Below are positions 61,093 through 64,000 of a stretch of DNA of 64,000 bases, piece after piece. Below the pieces are notes generated by a model. That model searched no databases and was not told the DNA's origin. It worked only from the letters and a program-made list of their open reading frames with translations. The DNA is from a virus. Taxonomy: Duplodnaviria; Caudoviricetes. The stretch's first letter is position 1. Each line of letters begins with the position of its first letter. The position numbers were made by a program, and so were the translations under genes. The stretch spans positions 32,001-96,000 of IMG/VR virus record IMGVR_UViG_3300010163_000006, one strand, 5' to 3'.

Positions 61093-61122
61093 AATAATCC
61101 CCCAAATATTTGGGGGATTATT
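61093..61122 (-). terminator. Terminator closing array 1
   Basis: Perfect 30-nt palindrome AATAATCCCCCAAATATTTGGGGGATTATT with an A-tract on its left (U-tract on the minus strand). Confidence 0.75.
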
Positions 61123-61128
61123 GTCTCT

Positions 61129-61595
61129 TCACCAAGCATCACAAGACTGAACCAAGCCTCACCATGACAGAACTAAAATAAACTATACTTAGCTTCACCA
61201 TCACTCTACATGACGTTGCCTCACCAGTACCAAACAACACAATACCTGACAATATCATACCATGACGATACTTGGCTGAACCATCACGTTAATATACCCG
61301 ACACCACTCAACTTTACCAATACACCACCCACTTCAATACACCTGACAACACTCTACCAATACATGACGGGACTGAACGATGCCACACCAACACATTGCA
61401 TCACCCCACGAAACATGACAAAGCCTTACATTCACTTAACTCTGCAACACTATGCGTAACCTTAACGTTACTGTGCAACTCACAGCTATGCCTTTACTGA
61501 ACATCAGGTCATGTAATACTATATACATACCATCACATGACCTGACTACACCACACTTTAATACGCCACACTTCACTTTACCATGGCTGTGATAT
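61129..61595 (-). repeat. Array 1: non-coding 5-nt-periodic array (minus strand NGY-NN, about 90 units); putative guide-RNA precursor
   Basis: Plus strand parses acc-aa gca-tc aca-ag act-ga acc-aa gcc-tc acc-atg aca-ga act-aa...; starts about 10 nt after the stop codon of the Cas7-like gene. Confidence 0.85.
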
Positions 61596-61605
61596 TTGTG
61601 GCTGA

Positions 61606-62238
61606 TTAGTGTTCTGAAGCATTACCCCCGATTACATTTCCGTCGGCATCAAGCTCTTCCCAGACAAATTTACCCTTTCCACTGTTGCGCCACTGACCCG
61701 TTCCGTGGTAGAATCCATAGTCCAACCATTCACGAACGAGTGTTTCATCTTCATCCACCATACACAGTACGGTGAATTCGTTAGTGGAGCCGACCGGCAC
61801 GGTTTCTGAACATGCCAGTGAAACACGTTCACCCTGTGGTGTGTTGGCTCTTAACGGTCTCTGACACAACGTTATCTCACCATTAACGTTGATGACGGAT
61901 TTGCGTTCCTTGATAAAGATCAGACCGTCTATCTGTTTCTTAAACGCTTTGATCTTTGATGAAGCGGTACCTTTAACCTTTTTGAGGAAACTACAGGTCT
62001 CCTTGAAGTAACCTCGCCACTGATAGTCGTAAATGATCAGATTTCCGTCATCGTCTCTCGGGAATACGGTTGTTCCCTTTTCAACAGTCGGATCAACACC
62101 GACAGATGCTACCTCATCATCGATTGTGGTTGCATCGGGTGACTTCGAAGCGATGTAGCTTCTGTAGATTTCCTGGTCATTGGTTGCTGTGCCAAGCAGC
62201 TCCTCGATAAATGTTACGCGTACTCTGATTTCTTTCAT
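61606..62238 (-). CDS. Stand-alone Cas7/Csm3-like RAMP-superfamily protein (210 aa)
   Basis: RAMP motif order: IRVRVTFIEELLG (beta1), FPRDDDGNLIIYDYQWRGYFKE (P.I.gss.KG..R-like), ETVPVGSTNEFTV (E.v..Gt.F.f), G-rich loop GTGQWRNSGKGKF; AAGGAGG RBS. Confidence 0.75.
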   Translation of the reverse strand: MKEIRVRVTFIEELLGTATNDQEIYRSYIASKSPDATTIDDEVASVGVDPTVEKGTTVFPRDDDGNLIIYDYQWRGYFKETCSFLKKVKGTASSKIKAFKKQIDGLIFIKERKSVINVNGEITLCQRPLRANTPQGERVSLACSETVPVGSTNEFTVLCMVDEDETLVREWLDYGFYHGTGQWRNSGKGKFVWEELDADGNVIGGNASEH

Positions 62239-62341
62239 AGAAATCAACCTCCTTTAGATAAATAATAAGTAGTTTATGGATATCTCATTTCTGATATATC
62301 CATAATAATTAAATATATTTCAAAAATAAGAAAAATAGAAA

Positions 62342-62362
62342 GTCCGGGGATAATCCCCGGAC
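62342..62362 (-). terminator. Intrinsic terminator upstream of the RAMP gene promoter region
   Basis: GTCCGGGGAT-A-ATCCCCGGAC with an A-rich tract on its left. Confidence 0.7.
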
Positions 62363-62377
62363 ATGAAATTCTTCTAT

Positions 62378-62764
62378 TTATGGAGCCGGATATATGACAA
62401 AAGTTTTCAGACCTTTGATCTTGAACCCGCCGTCTTCTGTCGGTTCTCCGAACACTCTTGGGACGGCAATCAATTTGGGATTGTTTGACACAAATTCCTT
62501 GATCATTTTGTCAGATTGGTCAAATTCAACATCTATCCACCCACCAACAAATCCCATATCATAACCAGTTATCACTCCTATGATATCATTTATATCAACT
62601 CTCAAATGTAAAATATCTACTGTTTTACAGTCTGTTCCCTTCACAACCTTCATACCAACCAAACCATGTGTAGATATATGTTTGTATAAGTCTTTAAATG
62701 ATAGACATTCGTTGATTCTGACGGGAATGGTTTTCCTGATCTTCTTAGGGATCCTGACTTTCAT
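62378..62764 (-). CDS. Hypothetical protein between array 2 and the RAMP gene
   Basis: AAGGAG RBS before MKVRIPK; about 128 aa. Confidence 0.6.
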   Translation of the reverse strand: MKVRIPKKIRKTIPVRINECLSFKDLYKHISTHGLVGMKVVKGTDCKTVDILHLRVDINDIIGVITGYDMGFVGGWIDVEFDQSDKMIKEFVSNNPKLIAVPRVFGEPTEDGGFKIKGLKTFVIYPAP

Positions 62765-62791
62765 TAATTTATCACTCCTTTCCATATAATA

Positions 62792-62828
62792 AAAAATAAC
62801 CCCCGTAAGGTGGGAGGAGGTTATTTTT
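62792..62828 (-). terminator. Terminator-like hairpin closing array 2
   Basis: AAAAATAACC...GGTTATTTTT arms around a GC-rich imperfect inner stem. Confidence 0.55.
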
Positions 62829-62840
62829 CTTTAAGATATG

Positions 62841-64000
62841 TCGTTACCATTACTCTACAAGACCCAACTTTGATGAACCATTACTGAACCAAACCGCGCT
62901 TTGCCTTACAACACTTGGCATCGCCGCACCGTAACACCGCTATACTGGGCTGAACTATGCCTTTACGCAACAGCACTATTCGACGCTACACCATAACTTC
63001 ACAATACCCACGCGGTACAATGCGTTACAGGACATAGCCTTTACTGGTACCATTCGACACCTTACCTGCACATGACATCGCCACCTATCACAACACAACA
63101 CCAATACAGAACAATACCGAACGCCACACTACCTTTACGATACATACGAACACGAAGCTCAATATTACTATACTTAACATTACCCGTTACGTGACCATGC
63201 GGCACCTGACCTTACCAAAACATTACTCTACGCCTCCTGGCTTTACCCAAACATTACGCTCGCAGCATTACTGCACCATCACAGCACCATACGTAAACTG
63301 ACTATACATTACCGATACAATACGAATCAGTACGGAACATCACGGAACCCATTACGTAACGTAACGCCACTTGACCGAACTGCACCCTCACAAAACTATC
63401 CCATACTGTACCATTAATGTACACTGCGTGACTAAACACGACTCTACCTGTACTTTACTATGAGCAACGTATCTCCGCTCCGCTTTACCTTTACTAAGCA
63501 TTACCTGGTATTGCTTAACCTTGCCTATACGATACCAAGCGTGGCATTTCTTCACCGCACCGTTTACTCTACATTACTCGACTTCACTCCAACATTACCC
63601 TCACATGGCATCATAAGACCACACTTTACCTTTACGACACCTCACAGAACAGGACCAAACCATGCCTGAACATTACCTTTAGATCACAATACGCGACGAT
63701 ACTTCACCTTACCATTACCAGAGAAAACGTCACCATACCGATACCGCAACCATGCTTCACCTTACTTAACCCTTACTTGGCTTGGCGGAACAAAACTATA
63801 CTATACCGTTACATAATCATACCGCACCCGGCCTTACCCATAACATCACAAAACTTTTCTGTACACTTCCTTTGCGGAAACTATGCCCGACACAGCATCA
63901 CGACACTATACCGGAACGCCACGTCACTCTACGGTACACCACCATGCTATACCAGCACAGTGCATTACTTGACATTGCTTTACCTTACCAATGCTGTACA
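62841..64000 (-). repeat. Array 2: non-coding 5-nt-periodic array (minus strand NGY-NN, over 200 units), running off the window end
   Basis: Minus strand from 64000 reads TGT-AC AGC-ATT GGT-AA GGT-AA AGC-AA TGT-CA AGT-AA TGC-AC TGT-GCT GGT-AT AGC-AT GGT-GG... Confidence 0.88.

What the first reader, a model, noticed from the sequence alone, without database searches (positions are those of the whole stretch)
62841..64000. Array 2: over 1.15 kb of information-rich 5-nt-period DNA that is not a simple tandem repeat
The plus strand parses almost continuously as RCN-NN (acc-att act-ct aca-ag acc-ca act-tt gat-ga acc-att act-ga acc-aa acc-gc gct-tt gcc-tt aca-ac act-tg gca-tc gcc-gc acc-gta...). 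Only two of five positions are constrained, and I see no long exact duplications, so slippage expansion explains it poorly; it looks like a maintained scaffold with diverse content. The plus strand is strongly G-poor and A/C-rich, unlike the rest of the window. It is separated from the RAMP gene by another gene and terminators, so it would act in trans as an independent RNA reservoir. CRISPR and tandem-repeat finders would probably miss it.
Basis: seen in the sequence. Interest (0 to 1): 0.88.

Follow-up and report, generated by a model that had tools for sequence, protein, structure and literature searches.

The report
Phage VIPR guide-RNA array
This 1.5-kb stretch of 5-base units is real and is best read as a very long guide-RNA array of a phage VIPR system, a Cas7-like protein plus pentamer-repeat RNAs first described in 2026 preprints, so it is a new example of a known kind.

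Summary
Window 62846-64000 is the larger part of a 1.53-kb non-coding array, which runs on to 64370 outside the window. It has about 272 units: NNNRC(C) on the + strand, (G)GYNNN on the - strand. RC-to-RC spacing is 5 nt in 159 of 319 intervals, against 34 expected.

The 155.7-kb phage genome holds only one other such array, at 61126-61603. That one sits directly behind a 210-aa gene whose model has a Cas7/Csm3/Cmr4 RAMP fold (Z up to 11.1).

On the - strand both arrays start at a stop codon and end in an intrinsic terminator. The RAMP family has more than 2000 clusters at 50% identity, mostly in gut Clostridia contigs. Of 80 loci, 60 carry a same-strand array, and arrays compared between relatives share no sequence.

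This matches the VIPR systems of bioRxiv 10.64898/2026.04.26.720920: a Vipr RAMP with vrRNAs of GGY/NN pentamers.

This clade differs in four ways:
- Only GY is fixed, the paper's alternative "YNNNG" repeat.
- A 6-nt GYRAWG unit closes modules of mostly 26-41 nt.
- There is no structured tail.
- No conserved accessory gene was found.

Expression, processing and targets were not shown; my target searches found nothing reliable. Earlier notes of this scan cover the same genome only, not other DNA.

The parts
62846..64000 (-). Array 2, the finding: the window part of a 1.53-kb vrRNA-type array. About 272 units of (G)GYNNN are arranged in modules closed by a 6-nt GYRAWG unit. It continues to window 64370 (genome C1 96370), 3 nt from the stop codon of a 434-aa sigma70_r4 + alpha-CTD gene that lies outside the window.
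   Evidence: for periodicity and parse. for the boundaries. for no coding signal. for no excess RNA structure (z = +0.26).
62790..62817 (-). Intrinsic-terminator-like hairpin with a T run that closes array 2 on the - strand.
   Evidence: L001 2817-2800 plus tail; sequence.
62378..62785 (-). 135-aa ORF between array 2 and vipr. It is not a conserved partner of the system and has no Pfam or PHROG match. The Atlas structure search points to the prohead-protease (Peptidase_S77) fold.
   Evidence: No similarity to SUSP1 vap1.
62342..62362 (-). Terminator-like hairpin after the 135-aa ORF and upstream of vipr.
61606..62238 (-). vipr-like gene: a 210-aa stand-alone RAMP (Cas7-like) with an invariant G-loop motif G-x-G-Q-W-R. 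An AAGGAGG ribosome-binding site lies 9 nt before the ATG at 62238.
   Evidence: Model pLDDT 81.6. Foldseek E about 1e-6 to type VII Cas7 and Csm3. VIA-align Z up to 11.1, with ranks 1-34 all CRISPR RAMP chains. hhalign to SUSP1 Vipr E 1.7e-4 over 174 columns. It is the only copy in the genome.
61126..61603 (-). Array 1: at least 67 parsed units of the same GYNNN code, starting at the vipr stop codon.
61093..61122 (-). Terminator hairpin (13 pairs) with a T run that closes array 1.
   Evidence: sequence.

Best explanation
Array 2 is a kilobase-scale guide-RNA (vrRNA) array of a phage-encoded VIPR system.

Inferred mechanism:
- The - strand is transcribed, most likely as the 3' extension of the upstream sigma-like gene, and stops at the hairpin at 62790-62817.
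- The 210-aa Vipr RAMP encoded about 600 nt downstream polymerises along the RNA, one protomer per pentamer.
- Each protomer holds the fixed G-Y and exposes the variable bases.
- The variable bases then read a gapped sequence in the double-stranded DNA of a competing mobile element and silence it.

Features of this clade:
- Only GY is fixed, not GGY.
- A 6-nt GYRAWG unit every 26-41 nt creates a GGY and shifts the phase by one base. This probably marks the boundaries of some 45-60 short guides, the 'staggered array' layout of the preprint.

Shown here:
- the array anatomy;
- the RAMP fold of the neighbouring protein;
- linkage of protein and array across the family;
- turnover of array content between relatives.

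Inferred by analogy with the SUSP1 and P. fulva work:
- transcription and processing;
- filament assembly on the RNA;
- DNA targeting.
For: 1. Array anatomy. About 272 units with fixed GY and three near-free positions; spacing of 5 nt in 159 intervals against 34 expected.
2. Rarity. Only two such arrays exist in 155.7 kb, both on the vipr-sense strand, each running from a stop codon to a terminator.
3. The protein. The model has a RAMP fold with a thumb hairpin and G-loop. Its profile aligns over the full length to the characterised SUSP1 Vipr (E 1.7e-4, probability 49%).
4. Residue match to the repeat.
   - In that alignment SUSP1 W178 and R179, which hold G2 and Y3 (10.64898/2026.04.26.720927), correspond to W183 (invariant) and R184 (at least 90% conserved).
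   - The two residues that read G1, H17 and D177, are T17 and Q182 here.
   - That fits the loss of G1 from the repeat: the base before GY is G in only 21% of 5-nt units, against about two thirds in SUSP1.
5. Family linkage. L002, L017 and L020 carry arrays of 0.55-1.5 kb directly after the homologue. Of 80 genome-contig loci, 60 carry a same-strand array. Across 42 further arrays of the family, the 6-nt closing unit ends in G in 90% of cases and module lengths peak at 26-36 nt.
6. Content turnover with a conserved scaffold, and identical arrays in independent assemblies of one phage.
7. Literature. VIPR is a Vipr RAMP plus GGY/NN pentamer vrRNAs. The preprints list the alternative repeats NNNGG, YNNNG and NNNNG, staggered arrays, and non-canonical motifs such as WGT/NN.
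Against:
- No promoter was identified.
- No structured 3' tail and no ribozyme lies between modules.
- No conserved vap gene was found.
- Sequence-level homology to SUSP1 Vipr is only moderate.
- Modules of 5-8 repeats are shorter than the 9-16 repeats of characterised vrRNAs, so 10-16 informative bases per guide may be too few if the NN rule holds.
- Whether this clade is among the preprint's 667 systems, and which of the seven types it belongs to, could not be checked because the supplement is not held.
Confidence: 0.85

Rival explanations
1. The array is a decoy or sponge rather than a set of working guides. The long GYNNN RNA would soak up Vipr protein, the phage's own or a rival's, or tune the stability or translation of the sigma-like mRNA whose 3' end it forms. 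Its variable bases would then carry no target information.
For: - The array starts 3 nt after the sigma-like stop codon.
- No targets were found.
- The third variable base has background composition.
- Satellites use solo vrRNAs to redirect Vipr (10.64898/2026.10.15.759431).
Against: - The published decoys are still sequence-specific guides.
- The module punctuation is conserved across the family, which suggests discrete processed units.
- A sponge would not need near-maximal diversity at the variable positions.
- My target searches were exact-match only, or ran against small databases, so their failure carries little weight.
Confidence: 0.08
2. The signal acts at the DNA level. AC/GT steps about every 5.2 bp, half a helical turn, would form a binding lattice for a DNA-coating protein or a structural element, with no RNA involved.
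For: The mean period of 5.12-5.22 bp is close to half of 10.5 bp.
Against: - There is strict strand asymmetry, with GY always on the sense strand of the adjacent RAMP gene.
- Placement runs from stop codon to terminator.
- The non-integer period is produced by discrete 6-nt units ending in G, not by smooth drift.
- The linked protein has the fold of an RNA-binding RAMP.
Confidence: 0.04
3. The tract is a decaying microsatellite, an assembly artefact or a translated repetitive CDS.
For: A few short internal duplicates exist. The G-poor + strand has chance open frames of up to 189 codons.
Against: - Two positions stay fixed while three vary. Decay of a microsatellite would blur all five.
- Identical arrays occur in three and in two independent assemblies of related phages.
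- Period-3 power is 0.28, against 3.8-6.7 in neighbouring genes, and all six frames contain stops.
Confidence: 0.02

Closest known systems
VIPR systems, type II (Escherichia phage SUSP1, P. fulva prophage); bioRxiv 10.64898/2026.04.26.720920 and 10.64898/2026.04.26.720927
   Same: - A small stand-alone RAMP of about 200 aa, with the G-loop motif GxGxWR.
- Pentanucleotide repeats with a fixed G-Y and hypervariable bases.
- Arrays in the intergenic DNA flanking vipr on the same strand.
- Phage-borne.
- Array content differs between relatives.
   Different: - SUSP1 has four discrete vrRNAs of about 100 nt, each with 12-16 GGYNN repeats and a pseudoknot tail, plus vap1.
- Here two continuous arrays of about 0.5 and 1.5 kb have no tails.
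- G1 is not conserved here.
- A 6-nt punctuation unit is present here.
- No vap1 homologue was found.
- The G1-reading residues H17 and D177 are replaced by T17 and Q182.
Non-canonical and 'staggered' VIPR arrays: YNNNG repeats and fig. S18 of 10.64898/2026.04.26.720920; WGT/NN-type motifs in 10.64898/2026.10.21.760802
   Same: - The repeat with only G and Y fixed equals YNNNG.
- The base before GY is A or T in 63% of 5-nt units, which resembles WGT/NN.
[quoted passage not shown]
   Different: - I could read only the legends and methods, not the figures or supplement, so identity with those classes is inferred.
- The language-model paper reports about 10 repeats per non-canonical array. Here there are about 272 in one tract.
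Class 1 CRISPR-Cas backbone (Cas7/Csm3/Cmr4 on crRNA)
   Same: The protein fold is the same (Z 8-11), and a protein filament binds the RNA periodically.
   Different: - There are no repeat-spacer array, no other cas genes and no adaptation genes.
- The period is 5 nt with a fixed dinucleotide in every unit, instead of 6 nt on an arbitrary spacer.

Membership tests
VIPR (Viral Interference Programmable Repeat) systems | Stand-alone small RAMP protein with RRM core, glycine-rich loop and thumb | tested here: met
   AlphaFold model pLDDT 81.6, with a beta-hairpin at residues 123-147 and a G-loop at 179-190. Foldseek top hits are type VII Cas7, Csm3 and Cmr4, E about 1e-6. VIA-align Z up to 11.1, with ranks 1-34 all CRISPR RAMP chains.
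VIPR (Viral Interference Programmable Repeat) systems | Homology to an experimentally characterised Vipr protein | tested here: inconclusive
   hhalign of a 47-sequence family profile against SUSP1 Vipr gave E 1.7e-4, probability 49%, 174 aligned columns, with GxG[Q/D]WR aligned. The narrower profile gave E 0.05. An HMM search of the SUSP1 genome found nothing. The SUSP1 Vipr structure (36pp) is in the PDB sequence copy but did not appear in either fold search.
VIPR (Viral Interference Programmable Repeat) systems | Tandem pentanucleotide repeats (GGY/NN or a related consensus) on the vipr-sense strand in the flanking intergenic DNA | tested here: met
   for this genome. for relatives. The consensus here is GY/NNN, which is the YNNNG variant named in the preprint's methods.
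VIPR (Viral Interference Programmable Repeat) systems | Non-CRISPR context: no repeat-spacer array and no cas operon | tested here: met
   TRF found no array with a period of 25-80 nt in the 8-kb locus. The neighbouring proteins have no Cas family hits. The genome holds a single RAMP gene. The rest of the genome was not screened for cas genes.
VIPR (Viral Interference Programmable Repeat) systems | Accessory vap gene next to vipr | tested here: inconclusive
   The 135-aa neighbour and the sigma-like gene have no homologues in 90 related loci. The 135-aa protein shows no similarity to SUSP1 vap1. The preprint says loci 'typically' carry a vap, so absence does not exclude membership.
VIPR (Viral Interference Programmable Repeat) systems | vrRNAs expressed, processed and bound by Vipr | not testable with these tools
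No RNA data were available.
VIPR (Viral Interference Programmable Repeat) systems | Variable bases match natural DNA targets under a gapped (1-nt skip) rule | tested here: inconclusive
   No excess over reversed controls in the phage's own genome or in about 0.7 Mb of related loci. Exact-pattern scans gave 0 or chance-level hits. Searches that tolerate mismatches against host pangenomes were not possible.
VIPR type II (SUSP1 / P. fulva clade) | Conserved G1 (full GGY), discrete vrRNAs of about 100 nt with a structured 3' tail, and vap1 | tested here: not met
   G precedes GY in 21% of 5-nt units. The RNA folds no better than shuffles (z = +0.26) and there are no Rfam hits inside the arrays. 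No vap1 homologue was found. So this locus is a VIPR but not of type II.
CRISPR-Cas class 1 | Repeat-spacer array together with multiple cas genes | tested here: not met

The most novel reading that the evidence does not exclude
This gut-phage clade may use a decoding rule different from the characterised type II VIPR. With G1 freed, a guide unit may present three bases instead of two. Kilobase arrays would then be cut at GYRAWG|G junctions into dozens of very short guides of 5-8 repeats, giving one phage a repertoire of about 60 guides. That is far larger than any described VIPR locus.
Probability: 0.2. Interest if true: 0.6.

Novelty: new member of a known kind. Interest (0 to 1): 0.33.

Why it matters
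That is a useful validation of the scan but not a discovery.

What this locus adds is modest:
- It is an extreme example, with about 340 repeat units in two arrays and about 1.5 kb in one of them.
- It belongs to a very large, uncharacterised gut Clostridia-phage clade: more than 2000 clusters at 50% identity, mostly Oscillospiraceae-type MAG contigs.
- The substitutions T17 and Q182 at the two G1-reading positions parallel the loss of G1 from the repeat. That gives a testable link between protein residues and repeat code.

The clade would be a good system for asking how staggered arrays are processed and whether the 1-nt-skip rule holds for GY/NNN repeats.

Tried and rejected
1. A fixed period-5 Fourier scan in 300-nt windows did not flag the array. 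The cause is phase slips; autocorrelation and anchor spacing do detect it.
2. blastn of the array and of the 7.8 kb beside it against the phages collection found no match.
3. Rfam at E up to 1 over the 8-kb locus found only tRNAs. There was no hammerhead or other family in the arrays.
4. Target searches:
   - The rules NNx, NN0, NNxx, NNxxx, NNN0 and NNNx against the phage's own genome and about 0.7 Mb of related loci gave no excess over reversed-pattern controls.
   - IMG/VR exact patterns for the 10-unit module gave 0 hits under four rules.
   - The 9-unit module gave 2 hits, in A-rich coding DNA of a 334-kb viral contig and of a giant-virus MAG, which is about the chance level.
   - The metagenome scan gave 4 hits. 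All lie in open frames, but the NNx pattern itself fixes the peptide. The best hit matches 6 of 10 wobble bases inside a RecB-like helicase and is not significant.
5. I tested whether the three variable bases behave as codons. Stop triplets are depleted in array 2 (4 against 12.9 expected), but not in array 1, in relatives, or in 144 modules from 49 arrays (z = -0.4 sense, -1.3 antisense). There is thus no support for a three-base codon-like reading.
6. Mismatch positions in diverged internal duplicates were too few to say which positions are constrained.
8. The supplementary tables of the preprint are not held, so the VIPR type of this clade could not be assigned.

Full report
**Observation**

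I read window 61800-64000 and laid the whole genome, a 155,671-bp virus record with direct terminal repeats. The window is C1 32001-96000.

- The A/C-rich, G-poor tract runs from window 62846 to about 64370, so the window cuts it.
- Same-base autocorrelation peaks at lag 5 (0.431 against 0.275, z = 12.6) and then at 10, 15/16, 21, 26, 31 and 36.
- The spectral peak is at 5.12-5.22 nt, so a rigid period-5 scan missed it.
- Successive [AG]C dinucleotides are 5 nt apart in 159 of 319 cases, against 34 expected, and 6 nt apart in 39.
- A chained parse gives 272 units, 192 of 5 nt and 46 of 6 nt. Read on the - strand they are G-Y-N-N-N, and the extra base of the 6-nt units is a G placed before the next GY in 85%.
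- Only one other place in the genome has this signal: window 61126-61603, in the same orientation.

**Not coding, not an artefact**

- Array 2 has 11-40 stops in each of the six frames. Its period-3 power is 0.28, against 6.67 and 3.82 for the flanking genes.
- Its - strand RNA folds no better than shuffles (z = +0.26).
- Rfam finds nothing in it.
- Related phages assembled from three and from two independent samples carry 100% identical arrays. Such tracts therefore assemble reproducibly.

**Layout**

On the - strand the order is:
1. a terminator;
2. a 434-aa gene with Sigma70_r4 and RNA-polymerase alpha-CTD domains;
3. array 2, starting 3 nt after that gene's stop codon;
4. a terminator at 62790-62817;
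5. a 135-aa ORF;
6. a terminator at 62342-62362;
7. a 210-aa gene at 61606-62238;
8. array 1, starting at that gene's stop codon;
9. a terminator at 61093-61122.

**The protein**

- The 210-aa protein has no Pfam or PHROG hit.
- It has more than 5000 homologues in metagenomes and 2045 clusters at 50% identity.
- Its model (pLDDT 81.6) matches CRISPR RAMPs. The matches are type VII Cas7, Csm3 and Cmr4, with Foldseek E about 1e-6 and VIA-align Z up to 11.1. Ranks 1-34 of that list are all CRISPR RAMP chains.

**Linkage across the family**

- Homologues in L002, L017 and L020 (71-81% identity) are followed directly by arrays of 0.8, 1.5 and 0.55 kb that end in terminators.
- Of 80 loci from prokaryote assemblies, mostly Oscillospiraceae and other gut Clostridia MAGs, 60 carry a same-strand array. 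Most of these start at the end of the gene.
- Arrays of different relatives share no sequence beyond chance 17-18-mers.
- The unit structure and the punctuation are conserved. Across 42 further arrays of the family the 6-nt closing unit ends in G in 90% of cases (GYRANG). In this phage and its nearest relatives it reads GYRAWG.
- Module lengths follow 5k+1 nt. They are mostly 31, 36 or 41 nt in this phage and peak at 26-36 nt across the family.
- None of the other neighbouring genes (135 aa, sigma-like, 79 aa) recurs in the 90 related loci.

**Literature**

[quoted passage not shown] It describes VIPR systems:
- They are mostly phage-borne.
- They consist of a small ancestral RAMP (Vipr) and vrRNAs built of GGY/NN pentamers.
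- The NN bases pair with double-stranded DNA while skipping every third target base.
- They silence competing phages and satellites.
- Seven types are described, with alternative repeats NNNGG, YNNNG and NNNNG.
- Some types have 'staggered arrays' whose vrRNAs overlap by one nucleotide, and others have ribozyme-interspersed arrays.

The companion structural preprint shows one protomer per repeat. H17 and D177 read G1, R138 and W178 hold G2, and R179 with a narrow pocket holds Y3.

Two later preprints extend this. One covers satellite decoys and solo vrRNAs. The other covers non-canonical 5-mers such as WGT/NN next to Vipr-like folds.

**Direct comparison with SUSP1**

- I located the SUSP1 locus (KT454805.2, 27.6-29.25 kb) by its GGYNN repeats.
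- Its vrRNAs are discrete. Each has 12-16 repeats and a structured tail, and about two thirds of GY are preceded by G.
- A diverse family profile aligns to SUSP1 Vipr over 174 columns (E 1.7e-4, probability 49%).
- W178 and R179 align with W183 (invariant) and R184 (at least 90% conserved). H17 and D177 align with T17 and Q182.
- This parallels the loss of G1 from the repeat here. That link is an inference from a moderate-confidence alignment.

**Conclusion**

Array 2 is a vrRNA-type array of a VIPR system, but not of type II. It is unusually long and probably of the staggered kind.

- Shown: the anatomy, the protein fold, the linkage of protein and array, and the turnover of content.
- Inferred: transcription of the - strand (probably together with the sigma-like gene), processing at the 6-nt units, filament formation and DNA silencing.

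Targets were not found. Local searches under six skip rules gave no excess over controls. Exact-pattern scans of IMG/VR and JGI metagenomes gave nothing above chance.

The third variable base shows no codon-like constraint across 144 modules. That is compatible with the canonical two-base reading but does not prove it.

**Earlier notes**

The earlier notes of this scan all concern this same genome. They made the same reading, a lone RAMP with pentamer arrays and 6-nt punctuation, and I confirmed it independently.

Noticed in passing
L001 4373-5677 (-), i.e. window 64373-65677, just outside the window: A 434-aa protein combines a Sigma-70 region 4 domain (residues 227-262) with a C-terminal RNA polymerase alpha-subunit CTD (residues 364-418). 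This is an unusual fusion for a phage transcription factor. Array 2 sits in its 3' untranslated region.
   Followed up: partly
L001 5968-7143 (-), i.e. window 65968-67143: A cluster of five tRNA genes lies upstream of the sigma-like gene. The vipr loci of relatives L002 and L017 also lie beside tRNA genes.
   Followed up: no
L005 1050-3088 and 8755-10236: In a 255-kb contig of a Ruminococcus sp. MAG assembly, the vipr homologue lies near two AcrVA2-like genes and a Cas12f1-like TnpB gene. This looks like a cluster of RNA-guided and anti-CRISPR functions.
   Followed up: no
L003 1-1478 and 4281-7021: Another homologue sits in a contig with ParA/ParB partition genes, and has arrays both upstream and downstream of vipr. 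The element may be a phage-plasmid.
   Followed up: no
window 62378-62785 (-): The 135-aa ORF between array 2 and vipr resembles the prohead-protease (Peptidase_S77) fold in the ESM Atlas structure search (TM by query 0.63-0.66). It is not conserved beside vipr elsewhere.
   Followed up: partly
window 62846-64370 (-): In array 2 alone, stop triplets among the three variable bases are depleted (4 against 12.9 expected), and many modules read as plausible peptides. The effect is absent from array 1 and from related arrays. It remains unexplained and may be chance.
   Followed up: yes
window 63694-63719 and 64226-64251 (-): Two modules of array 2 begin with the same 26 nt (first four units identical) and then diverge. 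This suggests module duplication followed by diversification.
   Followed up: partly
L002 7790-8050: After the array and two tRNA genes in the relative L002 there is about 250 nt of G+C-rich, apparently structured non-coding sequence of unknown nature.
   Followed up: no
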